In this document: in pieces, positions 44,630 to 64,000 of the stretch
Numbering within the stretch: the first letter of the stretch is position 1
How the letters are laid out: each line of letters begins with the position of its first letter
Source of the DNA: Naegleria gruberi
Taxonomy: Eukaryota
Reading direction: 5' to 3' (one strand)
Assembly: GCA_000004985.1 (NCBI GenBank)
Contig: GG738859.1
Length of the DNA stretch: 64,000 nt
Notes under the pieces: model-generated
The model's database searches: none
Seen by the model: only the letters and a program-made list of their open reading frames with translations
Told to the model about the DNA's origin: nothing
Translations under genes and position numbers: made by a program

Positions 44630-45332
44630 TTTATTTGCATTATTAAAATTAATGTTTATCCAAATTACATATTTAAAATTCAACAAATGGACCTTCATGG
44701 CCTTGACACGATTTTCAGAGTGGTTTCACATCGTCATCTCAGTGTCATCTAAATAGTAGTAATAATAGTAATTTTTGAGTAATTAGTGAGAATGTTTCAT
44801 CATGAAATTTTGGATACAAGTTGGTGTTCCATCATCCGATCATTCACCAACCAATGATCATTATTGTTTTCCATCAATATTATAAGCAAGTTGGAAAACA
44901 TGTTCATTTATTATCAGATTTTGATCATCGTGTTGTAAATTTATCAAGTACCGATATTCAATGCTACCCAATTTTTGATCGTTTAGTACAATTTTCGCAA
45001 TACCCACTAACAATTTAAATTTCTTTAAACTTTGTTGATGGTATTTGACATAATCTTATCTTAATGATTAAATAGTCATTCATGAATACAAATCAGTATA
45101 TGCAAAATATTCAAATTAAAAAATATTGATACATGACACAGAGATAATTGCGTGCGAATTTCGTATAATTTCGAATAAGGTTTGTTGTGACCCTGAAATA
45201 GTTTGAAATCTCTTGAAGGTTTTAGAATGGACAAAGAGACGAAACAAACATGTGGTGCAATCACCATCTTGATATCTCCTGAAATTTGTAATATTGTTTC
45301 GTGTTTCAAGATATCAACAAAATCATAAAAAA

Positions 45333-47972
45333 ATGAAAGAAACGAAACAAGTCATTCCAATTGTCAAATCAAAAGATGAACGAGAGGTCGATGAGGAAAA
45401 TCCAAAGGATGACACATCAAGTGATCTTTTTATTCAAGAAGATAAGAGAAAGATTGCATTCTTTGGTTCAATTAAAATGTGGCTAATTTTGATAATTTCC
45501 ATAATTGTATTGTTGACAGTTTTTATTCTGTCAGCGATTTGGTTGAGCAGTTTTATGCCATCAGTGGTTTCGTATAGTTCAGAATTGAGAGATTTTGAGT
45601 TTAACAATATTATTTCATTTGTAGAACAGTTGATTAGAGAAGTGTCAATGTCAAGTGATAATGCCAAACATTTAATGTTGAAATCACTTGATTTTTCGAA
45701 TAGAGATCAGATAGAAGTGTTGATTTATCAGTTTTATAAGCAACAAAAGGGTTACATGAAAGGAGTTGTTGTCACTTGCAATATTGGTGACAATGAAGGA
45801 AGGTAAATACTTTACAACAGTTTTAATCTTTACATTCTTAAAGACAATATGGAGTTATGGACTGGGGAGGCAAGCAAGCCTTATTCAACATCACCACAAA
45901 AGATCAACAACTTTATTATTGTAATAATTTTGATGAATTGATTATTGTAATAGAAGTTCAATTCCTGACATTCAATTAGGATTTTTTGACTTGACTGTTA
46001 TGATTACAACAGGAAATACTCATCCAAACAAAGCAACCATGTCTCTAAGTTTCATAGATGCATCACAACCACAGTATACTTTCATTACCATGTATAATTC
46101 AATGCCATTAACTCAACCAGATCCAAAAGGAAACAAATTTAAATATTATTTGGCCATTGACATGTCTGCTGAGACTATTTCTCAATATTTAGCGAATGCA
46201 ACTTCTAAAATAAGTGGTTCTAAGAGTTTTATTATTGAAATGGCAACTCAATATATGATTGCAAGTAAGTTTAACAATGAACAAGGTAAAAAGTTTACAA
46301 TAATTGAAAGATGACAATTCCAATGCAAGAGTTGCAGTTGTTAATTCAGATGGATCTGTCACAAGACAAACCTATCTCAAAATTGATAATGATGAAAGAG
46401 TTTCGTCAATTGCTCGTATATTAGAAAAAAATTATGGAACTAGTTTGAATATTAAATGCAATACCAAGTATTTGATTACATCTGCAACTGATTACATTTC
46501 AGTTTATAGATTATGCACAGATACTGATGTTGATTGGTAAGTAACCTAAACGAGCTAGAAATGTAATAATTATTCGAAATAGGTTGTTTGTGTTGGCAGT
46601 TCCTCAATGGAATTATATTAGTTCAATTGTTATTGCTGTAATTTGTGCTACTCTTGGTGCCACATTAATTGTCACAACAGGTGTAGCCATTTCCATCTTC
46701 ATTTCAGTCAGATTAGTGAAACCATTTTACAACTTGATTGATTTATTCGAAAGTGTTTCTCACATGGATTTGGATAATTTAATAATTCATGATTCCAAAT
46801 TTACAGAAGTTAAACATTTACAAACTCATTTCAAAACCATGACAGATAGAATCAAACTTTACAGAGCTTTCATTCCATCACATTTACTTTCTCAATTAGA
46901 TCAAGGAGGTGGCAACAATGAAAACAATGGAGGTCAAGATTCAAAGAAGAAACACGATGCTTCAATGGATTCCTCTCATAAATCCTCAAAAGAATCTGCT
47001 TGGAGTAGAAGTCATGCAGGAGATAGTTCAAGTTCACATCGAAGATATTCGAATGATTTGGATATTTTCTCACTTCATTTGGATCGAAAGAAATTATCCA
47101 TTGTTGCAATTCATATTGAAGGGTTGAATAGATTATTCTCTGAAATATCAGCAGGAGACTGTGTTGATTTATTGAAAGATTTCTTTGATCATTTGGGATT
47201 AGTTTGTAGAACAAGTAATGGTTATCTGGGAAATTTTGAAAATGATTTAATTTCAATTTCATTCAATGCAAGTTCAAATCAATCGAAACATTCAGAAAAA
47301 GCAGCTTCAGCATGTGTTCAATTAATGGAAAAGTTGAACACAACCAAATCAAAGAAATGGCCAAATCAATTGAAAAAGAAACCTCACTTGATTGAAATTG
47401 TTAAATTTAGATTTGCAATTTGTGTTCAAGAATCATTGTGTGGAAATTTGGGATCTAATGATTTTAAGAATTTCACAGTTATTTCAAGTGCCAAATTCAA
47501 TTTGGAATGCATGTTGGATGTTGCATCAAAATTGAATTTGAATATTGTATTATCTGATAGAGTATTTGCAAATTTAGAAGAACATTATCAAATGAGATAT
47601 GTTTATACGAAAGAATTAATTCCAGATTCACATTATTCATCTCCATTTATTCAACACAAAGAAAATGAAAGAGCACCAATTGAACCAACACATATTTATG
47701 AATTGGGTGAAAGCTTACATATTGGAATGGATGGTAAGTTTACAATATTTAATAATATTTCGAAATATTTACAATTTAACAATTTATTAGAATGGATGTA
47801 TGAATTACAAGAAAAGGAAAAGAAAGCAAAATGGACCAAATACAATCAAGCTTGCAAACTCTTCTTCTCAAATCAATTCGAAGAAGCTAAGGAACTCTTC
47901 AAAGAATATCATGAACTCAACAATGATGTGGCGGCTGAATTACTAATGCACAAATGTTCCAAAATTAATTAA
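45333..47972 (+). CDS. receptor-type cyclase-homology-domain protein, copy 1 (5 exons; carries a -1 frameshift in exon 2, so a possible pseudogene or assembly error)
   Basis: Exons 45333..45802, 45844..46264, 46311..46536, 46583..47733, 47791..47972, all with GTAAAT/GTAAGT donors. Topology: short cytoplasmic N-terminus, TM1 (IAFFGSIKMWLILIISIIVLLTVFILSAIWLSSF), ~330-aa extracellular domain, TM2 (LFVLAVPQWNYISSIVIAVICATLGATLIVTTGVAISIFISV), Ser-rich linker, CHD (SIVAIHIEGLNRLF..GYLGNFENDLISISF..FRFAICVQESLCGNLG..FNLECMLD). Relative to copy 2, one C is missing near 45937 (GAATTGATTATTGT vs GAACTTGATTATTGT), giving an in-frame TAG at 45977..45979. The last intron (57 nt) is in-frame and stop-free, so the track ORF reads through it. 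Confidence 0.6.
47031..47727. repeat. near-100% identical inverted-repeat tract (partner at ~53073..53763): putative gene-conversion segment within the diverged paralog pair
   Basis: Direct reading: the reverse complements of 53701..53760 and 53101..53160 are base-for-base identical to the corresponding copy-1 sequence, including synonymous sites. The encoded 231 aa (SSHRRYSNDLD..ELGESLH) are identical. Outside the tract the copies differ (extracellular domain ~70-75% aa identity). The left boundary has a small indel (copy 1 has extra GGAGATAGTTCA). Confidence 0.8.
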
Positions 47973-48303
47973 GATTGATCTCATAAAGATAAATTAAAAC
48001 ATAAACCAGTATAAGTATGCAATTTTTCAAAAACTCAAAATTCTAATCCGCCTTCTTATCAATAATTGATACTTCTGGATGGAAAATGAATATCTCAGTA
48101 AGATGACTCAATTGACCAATTAAACCAAGGCTGGAAAGCCGTTATGGTGATAAATCTCAGGGTGGACTTGGGCTTTCATCTCCAGTTGATATAAGTCACA
48201 GATGCCGTCACCCCATAACACTTAAACGCTGAACCGAATTACTGGTTGTAGACCTCGTCTCTCAGGTCTTTACGATACAAGAGACGTTAATAAATATTAC
48301 AAT

Positions 48304-51300
48304 TTATTTTTGGAGAAATATTCTAAAATTGCTAAGAACTTCTTCTAAGTTACCTCCAGTTTCATTAATCATTTTACTACCCTTCGCATAATTCTGCTCG
48401 ATATCCAATCCATACATGTATATTACTCCTAACTTTTGCTTTGCATCTATATCACTATCGTCAAATTCAAGAGCCCTTGTATACCACACAAAAGCTTCCT
48501 TGAAATCATTCTTAAATGCATGAAAATCTGCAAGAATCGTCATGCTGTCTTTAACTTGCATTTCTATTGCCTTATTGATCCAATACAAGAATAGTGCGTC
48601 GTCTTGATCCACTCCCTCGCCATGCATATATGAAATAGCAACATTTTTCATTGAATTACTGTCCCCAATAAGTGCAGCTTGTAAGCTGTATTGGAAAGAT
48701 TTTTGAAGATTATCTGAGTCGAAATAAATGGTTGATAATTTTGTCATGCAATATATATTTCCCAATTCGGCTCCTTTGGTGTAGTAAGGGATGGGATCAC
48801 CATTCGAATTGAAATAGTAATAATCTCCTAGTTTCATAAATGCTTCATCGTTGTTGTGAAGAGAAGATCTTTCGAATAATGAAAGAGCTTTTTTCAAGTC
48901 TTTCTCATATCCGATTTCAACACTTCCAATTTCGTACAATTCGCCCAAGTAGTTGAGAGCAGGACCATAGTCGTATCTAGCTGCTAGCTCTATTAATTTT
49001 AGTCCAAACCTTTCGTTTGATAAAACCTTGGACTTTCCAAAATCGAAGCAAGCTTTCGGATCAAAAAGAATTTTGTTCCTTACTTGCTTCACCTCTTGTA
49101 GTACAGTAATAAGAGTCTTTCCAAAAAGTAAATTAATTCCCAATTCTAATTGTAAGCCTTCTTGAGCAGCACAAAACAATTCTTGTTTCAAAAACTCTTC
49201 ATAATTTGGCATTTCAGAGTTGATCTCATAAACAGAACAGGAAAAGTCAATTTTCAGTTTCTTTGGTACCAATTCTCGATTAGTAAATTGTGTTTCATCA
49301 AACCCAGATATAAACAGAACATGCTTGTTGGATATCACGGATTCAATTGCAGTTTTCATTCCGCTTTCTGATAAATTTTGAATGGTTGTTTTAAGATTGA
49401 ACAAAACTAGCTCTTTTGATTGGATCGTAAAAAATTCGTACATTAAATTGAAAAACTCTGCAAGAAACTGAGCTCTATGTTTGATAGTAAGTGCTCTCCC
49501 AATAAATTCGCTTATTTTCTTCATGATTTTTTCTCCAAAATTATTGGAAGTATTTGCAAGTAATAGGTCGAAAATCTCCAATCTAATACTTTCCAAAATG
49601 TGATCCTTATCATTTTGTACAGATATGCGTATATTGTGCTCTTTCAGTTCCAGAGTTTTAGTTATGCAATCAACCATTTGTTGATATACTTCAGAAGCAA
49701 GAGAAGAGCTTTTTTTCAAGGCACCTCTTTTCGATTGATGGTAGTGAGGATATCCAGGGAAATTATCTATAAATCTCAAATCCTCTTCTCTAGTTGCTAC
49801 AGAAATTACACCATTCTTTGGAGAGCCCACTGCATGATTGACAATTTCACAAAGTCTTCTCATTTCCTTATTCCAATTTTCATCATTTGTCCAGTTAGAT
49901 CCATGATGGTCTACGTAGGCATGTCTTACTCCAACCCAATCTTTAAAAACATCTGGTTCAAATGGACGAATATCTTCTTGTTTGATTTCTTCATCAAACA
50001 AGCCAGGTTCAAATATTTTGACATTATCTACAATTAAATCATCCCAGCATACAAAGAATTGATCTCCGTCCAAATCTGATCCTGATATCATATTTGGTAC
50101 AGGTCTTTTACCTTTTGATGAAAAAACAATAACATCACACAAGTGAGATAATTTGGGATAGTAAACTGCTTTGATTTTTCTCAAGTCACCTCTATGAAGA
50201 CAAGGTTCTTTTGTCAATACAATTTCTTTCTGTAGAACTTGTTTGTGACTTGGATTTTTAAATGAAGAAATCTGAACAAATACCTCTCCTTCATTGAGGA
50301 CTTCATAAGGATCTACCACTCCATATAATCTTCTTGAATTTGAGAATGGAATTTTCAATGATGTTATGAGACTCTTGTATGGACCAGCCAGAAATGCAAA
50401 TCCTTTGTTTTTTGTGGTTGAGAGAACATTAAGGGAAATCAAATTATTATCTTTCATATATTGCCTCGCAATAACTTCAGTATCTTCATGAACGTATTTG
50501 TCTAAAGAGTTTTGAACGTGAGCAGATGCCATCTCTAATACTCTCTTTCTCACTTCTCCGTTAGAATCACATCCACTCAGTAAGTGCATGATTGTAGAGT
50601 TGACTCTTGTTAATTCGCATGGACTGGAATGACCAACTATTTGAAGAGTGCTAAAACTTTGGTCAACTTTTTCATTAGTTTTACATTTGACCATTGATTC
50701 TCTCAGTACAATGTGAACTCTATACTTTTCAAATGTTTCAGTATTAACAACAAGCATTCCTTTTGCTCCTCTAAATCTAATTTGAAACGCTGAAGGAATG
50801 TAAGAGCTATCAGAAAACAAATCAAAACCACGTTGCTCATCATATCCAATTTCATCTTCCTCTTGATCAGTTTTTATCAAAACTCTATTTTCGGCATTCA
50901 AGATGTGTTTGTAAACTTTCTTAGCCATGTCTGGAGAAATAAATCCACAACCATCTGTAAAGTTGAAACCATCTCTTTCAATATCTGGAATTACTGTGAA
51001 ATATTGAATGATTTCTGTTGGGATCACTGGTGTATTATAAAGAGCCAATCTAATTCTCTGCTTTAATATATTTTTCGAATCATACAGAGTTGGATTAAGC
51101 TCTTTAGGAATTGCCCATTCTTTAATTTGTTCAACAGTTGAGAGCTTTCTTGTTGGATCCTGCGTATTTGCTAATTGAGGGCAACAATACACATACTTAT
51201 ATGAATGCATTCCACTAGTATTTTGGCAAAGAATATTAAATTGATATTTTCCAAATTTGAAAGGTAATGGATTGATATTGTCTTTAAATGCTTTCTTCCA

Positions 51301-52071
51301 AGTTATCAACTCATTTCTAAATCTTGATTGATGTTTCAATTTCTTGATGTACTCCTTATCAAACACATCATTAATAATATCAGTATCCTGTTTCAGAATT
51401 TTCATTTTGGTCAACAGGAAGAAAAAATCGATTTCTTCAAAGCTAAATGGATTGAGAATAGAACCATTCATTTGTTCATCTCGAACCATTCTTTGAGATT
51501 TCAATCCCATTCTCGAGAATATAAACGATACATTCAATATGCAATCACCTCCAAACTCTTGTCTAAATCTTCCAATAACAAAATTGTCTTTTGGTGAGCT
51601 TTTAAATATAACACATAGCTCTGCTTTCTCAGCAGCAATAAAAGAATAGAACGTAATTGACCTCATTCTACTCAATTTCAATCCTGCCCTTCCATCAGAA
51701 TACGATTTATCATCTTTTCCTTCCAAAAACCAGTTGTTGATACTTTCCAAACCTTCGGGGTAGGTAACTATTACCTTCTTACTAACTTTCTTCATTAATT
51801 CGAATCTCTGATCGAAGGACATACCTGAATAACCTTCCCCTCTGAGATGACTCAATCTGGCAAGACAAATACCAGCATCATGTTCATTCCGAATCAATGG
51901 AAGTGTTTTATTTCGAGAAAGATGATAACAGTAGAAGAGATTATCTATTAATTGCTCGGTGGACGAATTTGCTGTTGTTTGATTGTTAGAATCATTCTGT
52001 TTGAAGGGCATTTCATGGTTTTTGTTAATGGAGAAAAGTTTGGGAAGGTTTGCAGTGAATTGTGTGAACAT
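48304..52071 (-). CDS. cellular RNA-dependent RNA polymerase (RDR/QDE-1 family) fused to C-terminal Sel1-like repeats, 1255 aa, single exon
   Basis: ATG 52071..52069, TAA 48306..48304. RdRP catalytic region ..PCLHRGDLRKIKAVYYPKLSHLCDVIVFSSKGKRPVPNMISGSDLDGDQFFVCWDD (DxDGD motif; cf. plant RDR ..VVFPQKG.RPHPNECSGSDLDGD.YFVSWD) at ~50050..50095. The last ~230 aa are Sel1/TPR-like repeats (..AISYMHGEGVDQDDALFLYWINKAIEMQ..; ..LGVIYMYGLDIEQNYAKG..). Confidence 0.85.
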   Translation of the reverse strand: MFTQFTANLPKLFSINKNHEMPFKQNDSNNQTTANSSTEQLIDNLFYCYHLSRNKTLPLIRNEHDAGICLARLSHLRGEGYSGMSFDQRFELMKKVSKKVIVTYPEGLESINNWFLEGKDDKSYSDGRAGLKLSRMRSITFYSFIAAEKAELCVIFKSSPKDNFVIGRFRQEFGGDCILNVSFIFSRMGLKSQRMVRDEQMNGSILNPFSFEEIDFFFLLTKMKILKQDTDIINDVFDKEYIKKLKHQSRFRNELITWKKAFKDNINPLPFKFGKYQFNILCQNTSGMHSYKYVYCCPQLANTQDPTRKLSTVEQIKEWAIPKELNPTLYDSKNILKQRIRLALYNTPVIPTEIIQYFTVIPDIERDGFNFTDGCGFISPDMAKKVYKHILNAENRVLIKTDQEEDEIGYDEQRGFDLFSDSSYIPSAFQIRFRGAKGMLVVNTETFEKYRVHIVLRESMVKCKTNEKVDQSFSTLQIVGHSSPCELTRVNSTIMHLLSGCDSNGEVRKRVLEMASAHVQNSLDKYVHEDTEVIARQYMKDNNLISLNVLSTTKNKGFAFLAGPYKSLITSLKIPFSNSRRLYGVVDPYEVLNEGEVFVQISSFKNPSHKQVLQKEIVLTKEPCLHRGDLRKIKAVYYPKLSHLCDVIVFSSKGKRPVPNMISGSDLDGDQFFVCWDDLIVDNVKIFEPGLFDEEIKQEDIRPFEPDVFKDWVGVRHAYVDHHGSNWTNDENWNKEMRRLCEIVNHAVGSPKNGVISVATREEDLRFIDNFPGYPHYHQSKRGALKKSSSLASEVYQQMVDCITKTLELKEHNIRISVQNDKDHILESIRLEIFDLLLANTSNNFGEKIMKKISEFIGRALTIKHRAQFLAEFFNLMYEFFTIQSKELVLFNLKTTIQNLSESGMKTAIESVISNKHVLFISGFDETQFTNRELVPKKLKIDFSCSVYEINSEMPNYEEFLKQELFCAAQEGLQLELGINLLFGKTLITVLQEVKQVRNKILFDPKACFDFGKSKVLSNERFGLKLIELAARYDYGPALNYLGELYEIGSVEIGYEKDLKKALSLFERSSLHNNDEAFMKLGDYYYFNSNGDPIPYYTKGAELGNIYCMTKLSTIYFDSDNLQKSFQYSLQAALIGDSNSMKNVAISYMHGEGVDQDDALFLYWINKAIEMQVKDSMTILADFHAFKNDFKEAFVWYTRALEFDDSDIDAKQKLGVIYMYGLDIEQNYAKGSKMINETGGNLEEVLSNFRIFLQK

Positions 52072-52806
52072 TTTTTATGTTTGTATGAGATTTGAGAGTT
52101 AAATTTAGTGCGAATAAATTTGTGTTTTGAATTCCCAAGCCAATTTATTTTAAAATTCCGTCCTGATTATAATCTTTGAATGAAGTACAAAAGCAACTTG
52201 GTTGATAAAAAACAAAACAACTACAGAAGTAACGAAACTACGCACTTTTTGAGATGTTTACAAGTGTTTAATGCATAGAATTGGATAAATTCGTCATCAC
52301 TGGTGGATCTACTGGACAAGTTGAAAACTGTCAATGTAGTATTGTTCGGAAGTCAATAGTAGGTAGGAGAACTTTCTCTTATCAATTTTGGTCAAGTTAT
52401 GTGAATTTTGAAAAAGTATGGACCATAACTCAACATGAATGGAGCAACACTTTTCTATTATATTCAATGAATAAGGGATGAGAAACACTCATTTGAAGAA
52501 GATAGATTTCCAGTGATATTTTCTCTCTCTATACAATTTATTATTTCAAAATCTGTTAAATTAAAATATTGGAGTGGTAATTGTTGAAAATTAAGAGAAA
52601 AATCTTTCCTGCTACATTCCATTCGCCAATTATGTTAATCTTTTGTAAGCAAATTGGAAAAGTTGACTGAGTTTAAGATTAACAAGTTCAGTTTATACTA
52701 TTCCTCAATTTGGTGTTTTAAAAGTCAAGTTGTTAGTTAAGAATAGTTTTTTTCAAATACTGGAATCATTGAATAGAAGTGAAATAATAAAATAACATAA
52801 AAGAAA

Positions 52807-55490
52807 CTACAATTCACTAATAGGTGTTGTAGTTGAACATTTTTTAATCATCAATTCAGCTGCCACATCATTGTTGAGTTCATGAAATTCCTGGAATAAT
52901 TCTCTAGCTTCTTCGAATTGATTTGAGAAGAAGAGTTTGCAAGCTTGATTGTATTTGGTCCATTTTGCTTTCTTTTCCTTTTCTTGTAATTCATACATCC
53001 ATTCTAATAAATAGTTAAATTATAAATATTTCGACAAATTATTAAATATTGTAAACTTACCATCCATTCCAACATGTAAGCTTTCACCCAATTCATAAAT
53101 ATGTGTTGGTTCAATTGGTGCTCTTTCATTTTCTTTGTGTTGAATAAATGGAGATGAATAATGTGAATCTGGAATTAATTCTTTCGTATAAACATATCTC
53201 ATTTGATAATGTTCTTCTAAATTTGCAAATACTCTATCAGATAATACAATATTCAAATTCAATTTTGATGCAACATCCAACATGCATTCCAAATTGAATT
53301 TGGCACTTGAAATAACTGTGAAATTCTTAAAATCATTCGATCCTAAATTTCCACACAATGATTCTTGAACACAAATTGCAAATCTAAATTTAACAATTTC
53401 AATCAAGTGAGGTTTCTTTTTCAATTGATTTGGCCATTTCTTTGATTTGGTTGTGTTCAACTTTTCCATTAATTGAACACATGCTGAAGCTGCTTTTTCT
53501 GAATGTTTTGATTGATTTGAACTTGCATTGAATGAAATTGAAATTAAATCATTTTCAAAATTTCCCAGATAACCATTACTTGTTCTACAAACTAATCCCA
53601 AATGATCAAAGAAATCTTTCAATAAATCAACACAGTCTCCTGCTGATATTTCAGAGAATAATCTATTCAATCCTTCAATATGAATTGCAACAATGGATAA
53701 TTTCTTTCGATCCAAATGAAGTGAGAAAATATCCAAATCATTCGAATATCTTCGATGTGAACTAGAGGCATGACTTCTACTCAAGCTAGATTGTTTGGAG
53801 TCTAATCTCGAAGATCTCTGAGAGGATTTATGAGAGGAAGCCATAGAAATGGAATCATTTTCATGAGCTTTCTTTTTGGCGTCAACATGATCTCCTCCTT
53901 GATCTAATTGAGAAAGTAAATGTGATGGAATGAATGCTCTGTAAAGTTTGATTCTATCTGTCATGGTTTTGAAATGATTTTGTAAATGTTTCACTTCTGT
54001 AAATTTGGAATCATTAATTACTAAATTATCCAAATCCATATGAGAAACACTTTCGAATAAATCAATCAAGTTGTAAAATGGTTTCACTAGTTTGACTGAA
54101 ATAATGACAGATGTTATAACACCTGCAGAAATTATAATACATGCGCCTAGAGTAGCACAAATTACAGCAATAACAATTGAACTAATATAATTCCATTGAG
54201 GAACTGCCAACACAAACAACCTATTTCGAATAATTATTATAGAGTTCGAAATTGATTTGCTAACTTACCAATCAACATCAGTATCTGTGCATAATCTATA
54301 AACTGAAATGTAATCAGTTGCAGATGTAATTAATGATTTGTTTCCACATCCAATAGTATCCAATTCTGTTCCCAATTCCGAAGCCAATACCTTGGCGATT
54401 GACGAAACTCTTTCATCATTATCAATTTTGAGATAGGTTTGTCTTGTGACAGATCCATCTGAATTAACAACTGCAACTCTTGCATTAGAATTGTCATCTT
54501 TCAATTATTGTAAACTTTTTACCTTTTTCATTGTTAAACTTACTTGCAATAATGTATTGAGTTGCCATTTCAATAATAAAACTCTTTGAACCACTCAATT
54601 TCAACGTGACCTGTGCCAAATATTGAGAAATAGTCTCAGCAGACAAATCTGTTCCTAAGTAATATTTAAATTTGTTTCCTTTCGAATCTGGTTGAGGTAA
54701 CGCAATAGAATTAACCATTGTAATGAAAGTATACTGTGGTTGTGATGCATCTATGAAACTATTAGTGATGGTTGGTTTTCCTGGATGTGCATTTCCAGCA
54801 TTAATCAAAATTGTCAAATCAAAAAATCCTAATTGAATATCTGGAGTTGAACTTCTATTACAATAATCAAGTTCATCAAAGTTATTACAATAATAAAGTT
54901 GTTGATCTTTGGTGGTGATGTTGAATAATGTAGGTTTTCCTCCCCAGTCCATAATTCCATATTGTCTTAAGAAATTAATGAAATATTGTAAAGATTAAAA
55001 CTTTTGTAAAGTACTTACGTACTTACCTTCCTTCATTGTCACCAATGTGATTTGTAACAACTAAACCTTTAAGATAGGTCCACTGTTGTTTCAAAAACTG
55101 ATAAATCAACACTTCTATCTGATCTCTATTCGAAAAGTCAAGTGTTTTCATCATTAAATGTTTACCAGTTTCACTTGTCATTTTTACTTCTCTAATTGTT
55201 TGTTTGACAAATGCAATAATATTATCAAATTCAAAATCTCTTAGTTCCTTGCTATATTCAACAACTGAAGGAATGAAACTACTCAACCAAATTGCTGACA
55301 GGATAAAAACTGTCAATAATACAATTACAGAAATAATTAGAATCAACCACATTTTAATTGAACCAAAGAATGCAATCTTTCTTGCGTCTTGTTGAAAATT
55401 ATCGCTTGAAGTATCTTCGATAGGTTGAGTATTATCTTCTGTTGCATCGTGCTGGGATCTGACAGGAATGACTTGTGTCGTTTCTTTCAT
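52807..55490 (-). CDS. receptor-type cyclase-homology-domain protein, copy 2 (intact paralog of the gene at 45333..47972, inverted), 5 exons, ~823 aa
   Basis: Exons complement(55027..55490), (54544..54965), (54269..54497), (53061..54220), (52807..53003). Introns of 61, 46, 48 and 57 nt at positions homologous to copy 1. Start chosen at the conserved AAAATCATAAAAAAATGAAAGAAACG context; an upstream in-frame ATG at 55544 is an alternative. Same 2-TM + extracellular domain + CHD architecture as copy 1. The C-terminal ~231 aa are identical to copy 1. Confidence 0.7.
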
Positions 55491-56994
55491 TTTTTTATGA
55501 TTTTTTCTATTGGGTATTGAGCTTGTTTGATGCTCAATCATCATGCATTTTTAGTTGCCAACATTAAGAATAGGTTGATGAAATACTAAATGCATCTTGT
55601 TTCGTAAATTTTTTCGGTCATTAGACCAAGAGATATTTGGTAAAGTCCTTAATTGAACAATACATTTGTTGCATCTGGACTTGTCATTTGCCATTAAATA
55701 ACAAGATGAAAATGTACATGCAAATAATAAGTTCAATGGATACAGATGTTGATGGGAGTTTTGTCATCTCTGGGAATACAGTTCTTTTCGCCAGCTGTTG
55801 ACTTGTCATTAACAAATGGATTTCCGTTTGTCTATATATTGTTAGCCTTCTTCCCCTTCTTTCTACCTCATTTCAGATCAGATAGTATCCAAAATCTGTG
55901 GAAATGTTTTTCCCGCTTTTTTCTAGTGCTCCCTCTTTAAAAGGAAATATTTAGTTTAATACATGGTATAACATCTTGAATTTTACACGGGTGATTTCAT
56001 ATCATGTATACTATATCCTATTCATTTTTGAATATTTAATCTTTTGTTTTCATTGAGATAATTAGTGAGTTATGACATCATATACCTTTTTGGGAAAAGT
56101 GATTTTTCGCTCAACTACTTAATATCGAATATTGAATTTTGTGGTGGTAAGAGATAAGATCAGATACTAATACCATGTGTAATTTTTTTTTACGAATTGT
56201 TGTGTATTAAGGAGGATATGCTTGGTTAAAGTTGGTGAATTTTTTTGTGAAATTAAAATAAAATGGAAGTTTATTAGAAGGAGAGTTATTTTTTGGCGCG
56301 AAGTTTCTTTCCCATAGAGAGAAAGGTTTCGGCCAGCAGTTTTCTAAAGTCTGAATACTTGATTCGAACAGTTTCATTCATAATAGCGAACAAGTTATAA
56401 AAAAAATCATTGAGACCGGTCCGGAATCGCTGTTTCTTGAGATATTCCAATTATATAGATGCTGATATTGATTTCTATCACTCAGAAACGTTATCAATAT
56501 CAGTTATAAGAGTACTGGTATGATGTTCAATCATGTTGTACATCTTGATATGACTTGTCATATTATCATGAGTAGTTAGTGACATGGTTAAATGACATGA
56601 ATACTGAATGATGTCCAAATGATTTGAAATTGATAGAAACCTCATTATATGATGTTAATAACATATTGTATCAATTTGGTATTGAATCTCATTGTCCTTA
56701 GGGTACTTCGCTATTGAGGTACCTTAATTGACCATCTCTATGTTTAAATTGAGATATGATATTTATTTCAATTGTATCATTTTGTAAATGATGGATAAGT
56801 GGCCTAGTTGTGTATGGTGTAGAATTGGTATAACATTATTTTCAACATTTACAAGTGCCATTTCTCATCATCTGTTGGACCAAAACAAAAATTTTTGTTA
56901 TAGTGGTGGTTTTTTTACTAATATCCACATGTACAATATCGGAACAAGGAGATGCTCTATAGTTGTGCAGAATCATTCCACCAACAATAAGTTT

Positions 56995-59230
56995 TTGAAA
57001 TATTCTTTTCTTAGTGAACTTTGCTTGCATCATAATTATTAAGGAATTGTTTCAAGTAGATGGAAAGTGTTCTAAAATTGCTGTAGATGGTAACATTCCG
57101 TTACAGCATAGTTAAATTCTAAGAAATGATTGAGATTTGTGATTTTTTCACAACTGTTATCTTTTAAACAATGGTTGTCATCCAACCCGATGTAAAAACT
57201 TTTTGAAATTGTTTCAAATGAGCTTGGAGTGGCTCAAACCCGTTGCTTCTTTTCAAAAAAGAGACTTATCCAACCTTTTGAATGAGACTGTATTATACTA
57301 TACAACAAACTGAAATTTATTCTTTCTTACTGAACTTTTCTTACTTCACAATTATTAAGGAATTTTTTCAAGTAGATGGAAAATGTTCCAAACTCGATGG
57401 AAATGGGGGCAGTCCTTTTCAGTATACTCAAAATCTCAATAATGATTGAGATTGGTCGATTTTTCACAACTGTAATCTTTAAAACAGTGGTTCCAACCCG
57501 CTTGTGGAACAAATTGAAATTGTTTCAAATGAACATGGTGGGGCTCAAACCCGTTGCTTCTTTTCGAAAGAGTGACGTAGCCAACCTTTTGACAAGACTG
57601 TATTATACTATACAACAAATTAAAATTTTTGCATTCTTACTGAACTTTTCTTACTTCACAATTATTAAGGAATTTTTTCAAGTAGATGGAAAATGTTCCA
57701 AAATCGATGGAAATGGTGGAAGTCCTTTAAAGTGTACTTAAATTCTCAATAATGATTGAGATCAGTCGATTTTTCACAACTGTAATCTTTAAAACAGTGG
57801 TTGTCATCCAACCCGATGTAACAACTACTATTAAATATTTCAAATGAGCTTGGAGTTGCTCAAACCCGTTGCTTCTTCTCAAAACAGTGACTTATTCAAC
57901 CTTTTGGTGGGGATTGTACAATAATGTTCAACAAATTAACATTGTCTTTTCTTAGTGAACTTTTCCTTCATCCTAATTATTAAGGAATTTTTACAAGTAG
58001 ATGGAAAATGTTCAAAACTGGCTATAGATGGTATAATTCCATTGAACTATACTCAAATTCTTAATAATGATTGAGATTGGTCGATTTTTCACAACTGTTA
58101 TCTTTGAAACAGTGATTTCATCCAACCACGCTTTAATAACAACTCCATGGACTGGCTCAAACCCGTTGTAAAATTAAATTAAACTTTCTCAAATGAGCTT
58201 GGCGTGGCTCAAACCCGGTGTGCTTACGTAAAATTCAATCGGAATACAATTTTAACTGGTATTCTGGCAAAGAGCCAACATTTTCACAATTAAACTTTCT
58301 TACTGAACTTTGAATATTTCACATAGTAAGGAATTTTTTCAAGTAGATGGAAAATGTTCCAAACTCGATAGAAATGGTACCAGTCCTTTACAGTATACTT
58401 AAATTCTCAAAAATGATTGAGATTTGCCATTTTTTCACAACTGTAATCTTTAAAACAGTGGTTGTAATCCAACCCGCTTGTGGAACAATTTGAAAAGGTT
58501 TCAAATGAGCTTGGAGTGGCTCAAACCCGTTACTTCTTTTCAAAAAAGTTCCTGATCGAGCTATGTGGTGAGACTGTATTATAGTATACAACAAATTAAA
58601 ATTTTTGCATTCTTATTGAACTATGAATATTTCACAATTATTAAGGAATTTTTACAAGTGGTTGGAAAATGTTCTAAACTGTATGTAGATGGTAACATTC
58701 CATTGGAATATACTCAACATCTTAATAATGACTGAGATTAGTCGATTTTTCACAACTGTAATCTTTAAAACAGTGGTTGTCATCCAACCCGATGTAAAAA
58801 CTTTTTGAAATTGTTTCAAATGAACATGGATTGGCTCAAACCCGTTGCTTCTTTTCAAAAAAGTTCCTGATCGAGCAATGTGACGAGGCTGGAATATACT
58901 ATTCAACAAAGTAAATTGTTTGCAATCTTACTGAACTTTGAATATTTCAAAATTATTAAGGAATTTTTACAAGGGGATGGAAAATGTTCTAAACTGTATG
59001 TAGATGGTAACATTCCATTGGAGTATACTCAAATTCTTAATAATGATTGAGATCAGTCGATTTTTCACAAATGTTATCTTTAAAACAGTGGTTGTCGTCA
59101 AACCCGATGTAAAAACTACTTGAAATTGTTTCAAATGAACATGGTGTGGCTCAAACCCGTTGTAAAATTAAATTACACTTTCTCAAATGAGCTTGGTGTG
59201 GCTCAAACCCGGTGTGCTTATGTAAAGTTC
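56995..59230. repeat. subtelomeric satellite: ~310-345-bp unit, ~7 tandem copies, in two higher-order blocks
   Basis: The anchor CAAGTAGATGGAAAATGTTC(C/T)AAA recurs at ~57053, 57370, 57680, 57997, 58340, 58658 (variant) and 58969 (variant). Each unit also contains TTTCACAACTGTAATCTTTAAAACAGTGGTT and TTTCAAATGA(G/A)C(T/A)TGG.GTGGCTCAAACCCGTTGC. Two blocks (to ~58260 and to ~59230) each end with a duplicated GGCTCAAACCCG(T/G)TGT..AAATT motif. Track ORFs inside (57327.., 57376.., 57436.., 58388.., 58652..) are repeat artefacts. Confidence 0.75.
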
Positions 59231-60953: not shown

Positions 60954-62838
60954 NNNNNNNNNNNNNNNNNNNNNNNNNNNNNNNNNNNNNNNNNNNNNNN
61001 NNNNNNNNNNNNNNNNNNNNNNNNNNNNNNNNNNNNNNNNNNNNNNNNNNNNNNNNNNNNNNNNNNNNNNNNNNNNNNNNNNNNNNNNNNNNNNNNNNNN
61101 NNNNNNNNNNNNNNNNNNNNNNNNNNNNNNNNNNNNNNNNNNNNNNNNNNNNNNNNNNNNNNNNNNNNNNNNNNNNNNNNNNNNNNNNNNNNNNNNNNNN
61201 NNNNNNNNNNNNNNNNNNNNNNNNNNNNNNNNNNNNNNNNNNNNNNNNNNNNNNNNNNNNNNNNNNNNNNNNNNNNNNNNNNNNNNNNNNNNNNNNNNNN
61301 NNNNNNNNNNNNNNNNNNNNNNNNNNNNNNNNNNNNNNNNNNNNNNNNNNNNNNNNNNNNNNNNNNNNNNNNNNNNNNNNNNNNNNNNNNNNNNNNNNNN
61401 NNNNNNNNNNNNNNNNNNNNNNNNNNNNNNNNNNNNNNNNNNNNNNNNNNNNNNNNNNNNNNNNNNNNNNNNNNNNNNNNNNNNNNNNNNNNNNNNNNNN
61501 NNNNNNNNNNNNNNNNNNNNNNNNNNNNNNNNNNNNNNNNNNNNNNNNNNNNNNNNNNNNNNNNNNNNNNNNNNNNNNNNNNNNNNNNNNNNNNNNNNNN
61601 NNNNNNNNNNNNNNNNNNNNNNNNNNNNNNNNNNNNNNNNNNNNNNNNNNNNNNNNNNNNNNNNNNNNNNNNNNNNNNNNNNNNNNNNNNNNNNNNNNNN
61701 NNNNNNNNNNNNNNNNNNNNNNNNNNNNNNNNNNNNNNNNNNNNNNNNNNNNNNNNNNNNNNNNNNNNNNNNNNNNNNNNNNNNNNNNNNNNNNNNNNNN
61801 NNNNNNNNNNNNNNNNNNNNNNNNNNNNNNNNNNNNNNNNNNNNNNNNNNNNNNNNNNNNNNNNNNNNNNNNNNNNNNNNNNNNNNNNNNNNNNNNNNNN
61901 NNNNNNNNNNNNNNNNNNNNNNNNNNNNNNNNNNNNNNNNNNNNNNNNNNNNNNNNNNNNNNNNNNNNNNNNNNNNNNNNNNNNNNNNNNNNNNNNNNNN
62001 NNNNNNNNNNNNNNNNNNNNNNNNNNNNNNNNNNNNNNNNNNNNNNNNNNNNNNNNNNNNNNNNNNNNNNNNNNNNNNNNNNNNNNNNNNNNNNNNNNNN
62101 NNNNNNNNNNNNNNNNNNNNNNNNNNNNNNNNNNNNNNNNNNNNNNNNNNNNNNNNNNNNNNNNNNNNNNNNNNNNNNNNNNNNNNNNNNNNNNNNNNNN
62201 NNNNNNNNNNNNNNNNNNNNNNNNNNNNNNNNNNNNNNNNNNNNNNNNNNNNNNNNNNNNNNNNNNNNNNNNNNNNNNNNNNNNNNNNNNNNNNNNNNNN
62301 NNNNNNNNNNNNNNNNNNNNNNNNNNNNNNNNNNNNNNNNNNNNNNNNNNNNNNNNNNNNNNNNNNNNNNNNNNNNNNNNNNNNNNNNNNNNNNNNNNNN
62401 NNNNNNNNNNNNNNNNNNNNNNNNNNNNNNNNNNNNNNNNNNNNNNNNNNNNNNNNNNNNNNNNNNNNNNNNNNNNNNNNNNNNNNNNNNNNNNNNNNNN
62501 NNNNNNNNNNNNNNNNNNNNNNNNNNNNNNNNNNNNNNNNNNNNNNNNNNNNNNNNNNNNNNNNNNNNNNNNNNNNNNNNNNNNNNNNNNNNNNNNNNNN
62601 NNNNNNNNNNNNNNNNNNNNNNNNNNNNNNNNNNNNNNNNNNNNNNNNNNNNNNNNNNNNNNNNNNNNNNNNNNNNNNNNNNNNNNNNNNNNNNNNNNNN
62701 NNNNNNNNNNNNNNNNNNNNNNNNNNNNNNNNNNNNNNNNNNNNNNNNNNNNNNNNNNNNNNNNNNNNNNNNNNNNNNNNNNNNNNNNNNNNNNNNNNNN
62801 NNNNNNNNNNNNNNNNNNNNNNNNNNNNNNNNNNNNNN
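60954..62838. other. assembly gap (1,885 N)
   Basis: Uninterrupted run of n. The 641-668-aa all-X ORFs in the track across it are artefacts. Confidence 0.99.
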
Positions 62839-63649: not shown

Positions 63650-64000
63650 GGGTTTGGGTTTGGGTTTGGGTTTGGGTTTGGGTTTGGGTTTGGGTTTGGG
63701 TTTGGGTTTGGGTTTGGGTTTGGGTTTGGGTTTGGGTTTGGGTTTGGGTTTGGGTTTGGGTTTGGGTTTGGGTTTGGGTTTGGGTTTGGGTTTGGGTTTG
63801 GGTTTGGGTTTGGGTTTGGGTTTGGGTTTGGGTTTGGGTTTGGGTTTGGGTTTGGGTTTGGGTTTGGGTTTGGGTTTGGGTTTGGGTTTGGGTTTGGGTT
63901 TGGGTTTGGGTTTGGGTTTGGGTTTGGGTTTGGGTTTGGGTTTGGGTTTGGGTTTGGGTTTGGGTTTGGGTTTGGGTTCGGGTTTGGGTTTGGGTTTGGA
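63650..64000 (+). repeat. telomeric repeat (GGGTTT)n, ~58 units, running to the window end (chromosome terminus; G-rich strand 5'->3' toward the end)
   Basis: Perfect hexamer array from 63650. One variant unit GGGTTC at ~63974..63979. Preceded by AT-rich unique sequence and the satellite. Confidence 0.9.

What the first reader, a model, noticed from the sequence alone, without database searches (positions are those of the whole stretch)
45333..55490. Inverted paralog pair of receptor-type cyclase-homology genes bracketing an RdRP gene, with a ~700-bp gene-conversion tract
Two 5-exon genes with the same 2-TM/extracellular-domain/cyclase-homology architecture lie head-out and tail-in around the single-exon RdRP-Sel1 gene (48304..52071), forming a ~10-kb palindromic unit next to the subtelomere. 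The copies are clearly diverged (extracellular domains ~70-75% identical, different intron lengths, a codon indel in exon 3). Yet a ~700-bp stretch covering most of the cyclase-homology domain is essentially identical base-for-base, synonymous sites included. That is the signature of recent inter-copy gene conversion or homogenisation of the catalytic-like domain while the sensor domains diversify. Subtelomeric inverted duplications with a captured central gene are also hot spots for ectopic recombination.
Basis: seen in the sequence. Interest (0 to 1): 0.75.

Follow-up and report, generated by a model that had tools for sequence, protein, structure and literature searches.

The report
Gene conversion between inverted receptor paralogs
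Two diverged, oppositely oriented copies of a Naegleria gruberi membrane-receptor gene flank an RNA-dependent RNA polymerase gene near a chromosome end, and a 0.7-0.86 kb stretch was recently copied from one to the other, which is a clear but ordinary case of gene conversion.

Summary
The window is the telomeric end of the 530-kb Naegleria gruberi NEG-M scaffold. Copy A (45333-47972, +) and copy B (55490-52807, -) are convergent five-exon paralogs around a single-exon RdRP-Sel1 gene (48304-52071, -). They are 87% identical overall. From 47031 to 47720 only 4 of 690 bases differ, and only 9 of 859 to 47889, intron 4 included. Synonymous divergence is 0.029 in the plateau and 0.27-0.90 elsewhere (Fisher p=2e-17).

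A third paralog on another scaffold (C, XP_002681430) matches B on both flanks, about 105 sites to 5. Inside the tract, all 6 informative sites group A with B. Between species the tract region is less conserved than the ectodomain, so selection does not explain the plateau. Gene conversion is supported, most parsimoniously from B into A.

Three corrections:
- A carries a 1-nt deletion in exon 2. It frameshifts a conserved cysteine-bearing segment. A's ectodomain also evolves about four times faster than B's.
- B is intact but absent from the protein databases.
- The cyclase domain has the class III fold but lacks three catalytic residues in all 15 family members aligned. It is probably a pseudo-cyclase behind a dCache sensor.

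Assembly error could not be excluded.

The parts
45333..47972 (+). Copy A (NAEGRDRAFT_65846, XP_002679045.1). Exons 45333-45802, 45844-46264, 46311-46536, 46583-47733, 47791-47972. Reading frame broken in exon 2.
   Evidence: Spliced model guided by N. lovaniensis P0003. Identical to P0001 wherever the JGI model overlaps.
45937..45938 (+). Site of the 1-nt deletion in A exon 2. A reads gatgaa-ttgat and B reads gatgaaCttgat (C at 54871). It frameshifts a conserved segment that carries two invariant cysteines.
   Evidence: Pairwise alignment. A's CDS is 2450 nt, not a multiple of 3. The segment is conserved in all 15 family members aligned, with C181 and C190 invariant. The JGI model avoids the site with a 151-nt intron, 45803-45953.
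52807..55490 (-). Copy B, an intact 823-aa gene. Exons 55490-55027, 54965-54544, 54497-54269, 54220-53061, 53003-52807. No database protein matches it.
   Evidence: Uninterrupted spliced ORF with GT-AG introns. Only P0001 and P0002 were found in N. gruberi, and P0002 differs from B at about 17 residues.
48304..52071 (-). Single-exon RdRP-Sel1 gene (XP_002679167.1) lying between the two 3' ends.
   Evidence: 1255-aa ORF. Pfam RdRP 3.6e-81 and Sel1 4.7e-9. 100% identical to P0009 on the 530,355-bp scaffold. DLDGD motif at residue 665.
47031..47889 (+). Conversion tract, arm A. The core 47031-47720 has 4 mismatches in 690 bp. The probable extension to 47889 passes through intron 4 (47734-47790).
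   Evidence: dS is 0.029 here against 0.27-0.90 elsewhere. Residues 529-754 give 6 sites with A=B≠C and none with B=C≠A.
52905..53763 (-). Conversion tract, arm B, the inferred donor. The core is 53074-53763.
   Evidence: Same alignment. B's distance to paralog C is uniform along the gene: 97% in the core and 92-100% in the flanking regions. A's distance to C jumps from 57-79% over most flanking regions to 97% in the core.
46322..46654 (+). Candidate older or patchy conversion tracts. Perfect runs of 89, 68 and 91 bp (= B 54486-54149) are separated by strongly diverged patches.
   Evidence: Each run exceeds all 5000 permutations of the region outside the main tract. Intron 2 just upstream is 45/46 identical. 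Suggestive only, because the runs were picked after seeing the data.

Best explanation
A and B are convergent inverted paralogs of a Naegleria/heterolobosean receptor family. The family architecture is TM1, dCache ectodomain, TM2, HAMP-like helix, a disordered Ser/His-rich linker, a degenerate class III cyclase-homology domain, and a short TPR-like tail.

The two copies diverged long ago: silent-site divergence is about 0.45-0.9. Recently a DNA break in one copy was repaired using the other copy as template. This was non-reciprocal homologous recombination between inverted repeats on the same chromosome, without crossover. It overwrote 0.69-0.86 kb that encodes the cyclase-homology domain and includes intron 4. 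About 3% silent divergence has accumulated since.

Comparison with the third paralog C makes the intact gene B the likely donor and the frameshifted, fast-evolving A the recipient.

Shown: the tract, its silent-site signature, the phylogenetic incongruence, the frameshift, the domain folds and the missing catalytic residues. Inferred: the repair mechanism, the direction of transfer, and the loss of cyclase activity.
For: - **Discrete tract.** 4/690 or 9/859 mismatches against about 13-20% divergence in the flanks. The longest perfect run is 264 bp, against a permutation maximum of 140 bp.
- **Silent sites.** dS is 0.029 in the tract and 0.27-0.90 elsewhere. Synonymous differences are 4 of 139.5 sites against 127 of 347 (Fisher p=2e-17). 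Intron 4 lies inside the tract and its divergence (4/57) does not differ from that of the tract's silent sites (p=0.23).
- **Incongruence.** Residues 1-518 and 755-823 are almost all B=C≠A (about 105 sites to 5 before the tract). Residues 529-754 give 6 sites with A=B≠C and none with B=C≠A.
- **Not constraint.** B against N. lovaniensis P0003 is 52% identical in the core and 63% in the ectodomain.
- **Direction.** In the core, A-C is 97% and B-C is 97%. In the flanking regions B-C is 92-100%, while A-C is 57-79% over most of them. A is therefore the mosaic.
- **State of A.** It has a frameshift and 30 unique ectodomain substitutions against 7 in B (p=2e-4).
- **Catalytic residues.** In B, Asp1 is His552, the substrate Lys is Asn592 and the Arg is Met685. 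None of the three canonical residues appears at its position in any of the 15 family members aligned.
Against: - No reads or independent N. gruberi assembly were available. A consensus artefact in a Sanger draft that contains gaps cannot be excluded.
A-to-B transfer plus an earlier homogenising event would also fit.
- The 3' boundary is ambiguous, between 47720 and 47889. Intron 4 is somewhat more diverged than the exons on either side of it.
- A's frameshift could be a sequencing error, or it could be spliced out by the 151-nt alternative intron used in the JGI model.
- Loss of catalysis is predicted from an alignment and was not measured.
Confidence: 0.82

Rival explanations
1. Assembly artefact. 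Reads from one copy were used in the consensus of both copies across the most similar region, creating a false identity plateau. Alternatively, one arm does not exist in the genome.
For: The scaffold is a draft with a 1885-N gap nearby. Copy B has no annotated protein. No independent assembly or reads could be retrieved.
Against: - The tract still holds 4-9 fixed differences, and both edges lie in unambiguous, copy-specific sequence.
- Introns and indels distinguish the arms on both sides of the tract.
- A third paralog on another scaffold also has a nearly identical core (97%) with diverged flanks relative to A. High core similarity among paralogs is therefore seen independently of this locus.
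Confidence: 0.07
2. There was no conversion. The plateau reflects much stronger purifying selection on the cyclase-homology domain than on the rest of the gene.
For: The tract coincides roughly with a folded domain. dN/dS in the tract is low at 0.06.
Against: - Synonymous divergence collapses to 0.029.
- An intron lies within the tract and is 93% identical.
- Between species the same region is the less conserved one: 52% against 63% for the ectodomain.
- The grouping with paralog C switches at the tract edges.
Confidence: 0.02
3. Conversion happened in the opposite direction, from A into B. An earlier round of homogenisation explains why paralog C's core is also A-like. On this view the cyclase-homology domain evolves in concert among all three paralogs through repeated events.
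For: - B's core differs from C at 6 of 234 residues, slightly more than in B-C flanks at 11 of 551.
- dS is heterogeneous elsewhere. Exon 1 is 0.90 against 0.27-0.46 for exons 2-4 (p=8e-4).
- Short perfect runs at 46322-46654 suggest more than one event at this locus.
Against: It needs at least two events where one suffices. The B-C difference between core (2.6%) and flanks (2.0%) is small, so B looks uniform relative to C.
Confidence: 0.15

Closest known systems
Trichomonas vaginalis transmembrane adenylyl cyclase (TMAC) family (PMC2914791)
   Same: A protist multigene family of membrane cyclase-type genes with many pseudogenes. The authors report direct and indirect evidence that gene conversion from intact copies preserves the cyclase domain in pseudogenes. 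That is the same pattern as an intact B refreshing a frameshifted A.
   Different: TMAC genes have no introns and are mostly one per contig, not inverted pairs around another gene. They are not described as subtelomeric. The sensor here is a dCache domain, and the cyclase domain here lacks catalytic residues in every family member aligned.
Trypanosomatid receptor adenylate cyclases (ESAG4/GRESAG4)
   Different: From established knowledge, the trypanosome ectodomain resembles a periplasmic binding protein, not dCache, and the enzymes are active cyclases. Here Asp1, Lys and Arg are replaced. No orthology is implied.
Bacterial dCache sensor domains of chemoreceptors and of class III cyclases (e.g. 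PctD 7prq, McpU 6f9g, PscC 6mni; CyaB 3r5g)
   Different: B itself scores below Pfam's threshold for Guanylate_cyc (13.9 bits against 21.9) and has no Pfam Cache hit. The fold assignment comes from a model of the N. lovaniensis ortholog, not of B.
Arm-to-arm gene conversion in inverted repeats (human Y-chromosome palindromes; subtelomeric gene families of yeast and Plasmodium)
   Same: Inverted or ectopic paralogs are homogenised by non-reciprocal recombination, and a chromosome-end location favours ectopic exchange (established knowledge).
   Different: Only about a third of each arm is homogenised here. The rest of the arms are 74-90% identical. The unit is a single 10-kb gene pair, not a large palindrome.

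Membership tests
Interlocus (ectopic) gene conversion | A discrete tract of sharply lower divergence, bounded on both sides by diverged homologous sequence | tested here: met
   4/690 (9/859) mismatches against 13-20% in the flanks. The run length exceeds all 5000 permutations.
Interlocus (ectopic) gene conversion | Homogenisation extends to silent sites and introns | tested here: met
   dS is 0.029 in the tract against 0.27-0.90 elsewhere (Fisher p=2e-17). Intron 4 lies within the tract and is 53/57 identical.
Interlocus (ectopic) gene conversion | Phylogenetic incongruence against a third homolog inside and outside the tract | tested here: met
   About 105 sites with B=C≠A against 5 with A=B≠C before the tract. 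Inside it, 6 sites with A=B≠C and none with B=C≠A. This is protein-level evidence only.
Interlocus (ectopic) gene conversion | Both copies physically present in the genome (not an assembly artefact) | not testable with these tools
   No reads or second N. gruberi assembly were reachable.
Class III nucleotidyl cyclase (catalytically competent) | Cyclase-homology domain fold and sequence homology | tested here: met
Class III nucleotidyl cyclase (catalytically competent) | Six canonical residues: two metal-binding Asp, substrate Lys and Asp/Thr, transition-state Asn and Arg | tested here: not met
   In B, Asp1 is His552, Lys is Asn592 and Arg is Met685. Asp596, Thr673 and Asn681 are retained. In the 15 family members aligned, none has Asp, Lys or Arg at those three positions.
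dCache (double Cache/PDC) extracellular sensor | Tandem PDC fold between two transmembrane helices | tested here: met
Eukaryotic RNA-dependent RNA polymerase | PF05183 domain with the DbDGD catalytic motif | tested here: met
   Pfam RdRP 3.6e-81. DLDGD at residue 665.
Pseudogene (copy A) | A disabling lesion in conserved coding sequence and no functional transcript | tested here: inconclusive
   A 1-nt deletion frameshifts a segment with invariant cysteines. An in-frame alternative 151-nt intron could bypass it, as in the JGI model. No expression data were available.

The most novel reading that the evidence does not exclude
The catalytically dead cyclase-homology domain may be kept in concert among at least three N. 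gruberi paralogs (A, B, C) by repeated domain-restricted conversion, while it diverges quickly between species. Class III domains act as dimers, so this could keep receptors with different dCache sensors able to pair with one another. A second, more speculative reading concerns the RdRP gene. The 859-bp near-perfect inverted arms flank it, and read-through transcription across both arms would give a long hairpin RNA that could feed small-RNA production.
Probability: 0.12. Interest if true: 0.6.

Novelty: new member of a known kind. Interest (0 to 1): 0.32.

Why it matters
- **For N. gruberi annotation.** The intact copy B appears to be unannotated. The annotated copy A is frameshifted. The existing models for A and C skip a conserved segment that carries two invariant cysteines.
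- **For genome evolution.** This is a well-delimited example of ectopic gene conversion at a Naegleria chromosome end, with a probable donor and recipient. It parallels what was proposed for Trichomonas cyclase pseudogenes.
- **For signalling biology.** It points to a heterolobosean family of dCache receptors whose cyclase domain has probably lost catalysis. Counts of Naegleria 'cyclases' may therefore overstate the number of active enzymes.

None of this overturns current understanding.

Tried and rejected
- **Locating N. gruberi genes in the contig index.** Look-ups for P0001, P0002, P0009 and the RdRP ORF found nothing on record. No independent assembly could be checked, and no DNA for paralog C was obtained.
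- **Modelling B directly.** I modelled the N. lovaniensis ortholog P0003 instead.
- **Pfam on B or on exon 4 alone.** Only a sub-threshold Guanylate_cyc hit appeared. Homology had to be shown with family profiles and fold comparison.
- **Synteny with N. lovaniensis.** tblastx of the P0003 locus against the window matched only the receptor gene itself. There was no RdRP and no inverted partner within 10 kb. The origin of the inverted arrangement could therefore not be dated. The P0007 locus likewise showed no RdRP or inverted partner.
- **My first reading of the three-way pattern.** I initially took B to be the mosaic, converted from A. I rejected this after comparing distances: A is the copy whose distance to C changes along the gene.
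- **Other organisms.** A ciliate origin was considered because of the G3T3 telomere. It was rejected because long ORFs use the standard genetic code and database hits are N. gruberi at 96-100% identity.
- **Literature.** Searches found no description of this locus or of Naegleria subtelomeres.
Full report
**Where the window comes from.** The window ends in (GGGTTT)n from 63650. Upstream of that lie a 1885-N gap (60954-62838) and a 315-bp satellite array (57007-59162). Long ORFs contain no in-frame stops under the standard genetic code. The central ORF is 100% identical to the N. gruberi NEG-M RdRP XP_002679167.1, which sits on a 530,355-bp scaffold. Copy A equals XP_002679045.1 (NAEGRDRAFT_65846) wherever the models overlap. 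This is therefore a chromosome end of Naegleria gruberi.

**Checking the observation.** The repeat finder and blastn show one inverted repeat, 45319-47977 against 52794-55504. It is 87.2% identical over 2687 columns. No other long repeat pair exists in the first 60.5 kb.
- In 100-column bins, identity is 74-98% upstream and 98-100% from about 47030 to 47720.
- 47031-47720 has 4 mismatches in 690 bp. High identity continues to 47889, giving 9 in 859 bp. The last 80 bp of the gene are again strongly diverged.
- The longest perfect run is 264 bp. The maximum in 5000 permutations was 140 bp.

**Gene models.** I used the N. lovaniensis homolog P0003 as a guide.
- B (55490-52807, minus strand) is an intact five-exon, 823-aa gene.
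- A (45333-47972, plus strand) has the same five exons. Its introns are 41/46/46/57 nt against 61/46/48/57 nt in B.
- A's CDS is 2450 nt long, which is not a multiple of 3.
- The cause is a single-base deletion between 45937 and 45938: gatgaa-ttgat in A against gatgaaCttgat in B.
- The deletion lies in a segment (QYGxMDWGG...YYC...DYC) conserved in all 15 family members aligned. That segment contains two invariant cysteines.
- The JGI models for A and for the third paralog skip this segment with a long in-frame intron. A may therefore still encode a shortened protein. This could not be tested.
- No database protein corresponds to B.

**Is it gene conversion?** Four lines of evidence say yes.
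- Nei-Gojobori silent divergence, A against B, is 0.90 for exon 1, 0.46 for exon 2, 0.27 for exon 3 and 0.44 for the 5' part of exon 4.
- It falls to 0.029 in the plateau, is 0.07 in the first 33 codons of exon 5, and returns to 0.90 in the last 26 codons.
- Synonymous differences are 4 of 139.5 sites inside the plateau and 127 of 347 outside (Fisher p=2e-17).
- Intron 4 (57 nt) lies inside the tract and is 53/57 identical. That does not differ significantly from the tract's silent sites (p=0.23). Retention of the intron in both copies argues for a DNA template, not a spliced-RNA template.
- A third N. gruberi paralog, C (XP_002681430.1, on a 707,703-bp scaffold), allows a three-way test. In residues 1-518 about 105 sites show B=C≠A and 5 show A=B≠C. 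In residues 529-754 there are 6 sites with A=B≠C and none with B=C≠A. From residue 755 the pattern returns to mostly B=C≠A.
- Constraint cannot explain the plateau. Between species the core is less conserved than the ectodomain: B against P0003 is 52% and 63% respectively.

**Direction of transfer.**
- In the core, A-C and B-C are both 97% identical.
- In the flanking regions B-C is 92-100%, while A-C is 57-79% over most of them.
- B is thus uniform relative to C, and A is the copy whose relationship changes along the gene.
- One event from B into A, after the B/C split, explains everything.
- The reverse direction needs an additional earlier homogenisation. I give B into A about 0.7, conditional on conversion being real.
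- This rests on protein distances only.

**State of copy A.** With P0003 as outgroup, A's ectodomain has 30 unique substitutions against 7 in B (p=2e-4). Together with the frameshift, this suggests A is under relaxed constraint or is decaying. Its cyclase-homology region has been refreshed from the intact copy. This is the pattern proposed for Trichomonas cyclase pseudogenes (PMC2914791).

**Possible further events.**
- Silent divergence outside the tract is heterogeneous. Exon 1 differs from exons 2-4 at p=8e-4.
- Three perfect runs of 89, 68 and 91 bp lie at 46322-46654, separated by very diverged patches. Each exceeds all permutations.
- Intron 2 is 45/46 identical.
- These hints of older or patchy conversion are post hoc and only suggestive.

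**What the genes encode.** Pfam on B alone gives only a sub-threshold Guanylate_cyc hit (E=0.04).
- An exhaustive phmmer search with B's exon 4 found 1002 relatives. Of 50 sampled, 20 carry Guanylate_cyc and 6 carry dCache_1.
- A profile built from 15 close family members hits the class III cyclase CyaB (3r5g) at E=4.3e-10. hhalign gives 96.5% probability.
- The alignment to CyaB places His552 at the first metal-binding Asp, Asn592 at the substrate Lys and Met685 at the transition-state Arg. None of the 15 family members has the canonical residue at any of these three positions.
- By the established six-residue rule for class III cyclases, this is probably a pseudo-cyclase. That is an inference, not a measurement.

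**The central gene.** It is a canonical eukaryotic RdRP with a DLDGD motif and C-terminal Sel1 repeats. Its nearest N. gruberi paralogs are only 34-37% identical. Paralog C's locus therefore does not carry a duplicate of it.

**Context in N. lovaniensis.** The two family members examined lie about 14 kb and about 6 kb from contig ends, next to other cyclase-type receptor genes. Neither has an RdRP or an inverted partner within 10 kb. There is no flanking synteny with the window. No telomere repeat is visible at the one contig end that was read.

**Verdict.** The phenomenon, ectopic conversion between inverted paralogs near a telomere, is well known. I rate it as a new member of a known kind with modest interest. 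The main unresolved risk is assembly error, which cannot be checked with these tools.

Noticed in passing
window 52807-55490 (-): Copy B is an intact 823-aa gene, but no N. gruberi protein in the databases corresponds to it. It appears to be unannotated in the reference.
   Followed up: partly
window 45803-45953 and 46265-46330: The JGI model for A (XP_002679045.1) uses a 151-nt intron that removes 37 conserved residues, including two invariant cysteines. It also uses a different 3' splice site at intron 2, which drops NDNSNARV. The model for paralog C (XP_002681430.1) makes the same 37-residue skip.
   Followed up: partly
window 57007-59162: A subtelomeric tandem array of 6.8 copies of a 315-bp unit at about 76% identity lies between copy B and the telomere. 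No protein-coding gene was evident between B and the chromosome end, but this was not examined closely.
   Followed up: no
window 63650-64000; N run 60954-62838: The telomere is a pure (GGGTTT)n array of 57 units with one GGGTTC variant. A 1885-N assembly gap lies 0.8 kb proximal to the telomere-adjacent unique sequence, so the true distance from B to the telomere is uncertain.
   Followed up: no
B residues 477-528 (window about 53767-53920; A about 46905-47030): A disordered Ser/His/Lys-rich insert of variable length sits between the conserved 'YRAFIPSHLL' helix and the first strand of the cyclase-homology domain. In the ortholog model its pLDDT is below 50. It is full of indels between A and B, and it forms the 5' edge of the conversion tract.
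   Followed up: no
L001 12545-12676 (N. lovaniensis PYSW02000001.1): tblastx shows that the N. lovaniensis gene has a counterpart of exon 5 (the DEWMYEL... tail). This is missing from the annotated protein P0003, so that model is truncated at the C-terminus.
   Followed up: no
L001 6949-8433 and L002 7008-9336: In N. lovaniensis both family members lie within about 6-14 kb of contig ends. Each sits directly downstream of another receptor-type gene: a 494-aa Guanylate_cyc protein and a 743-aa NIT-domain protein. This suggests that clusters of cyclase-type receptors near chromosome ends are a recurring feature.
   Followed up: partly
window 48304-52071 (-): The RdRP plus C-terminal Sel1 repeat architecture is shared by three N. 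gruberi RdRP paralogs (P0009, P0010, P0011) and by one environmental contig. The Pfam record of the closest N. lovaniensis RdRP does not show it.
   Followed up: no
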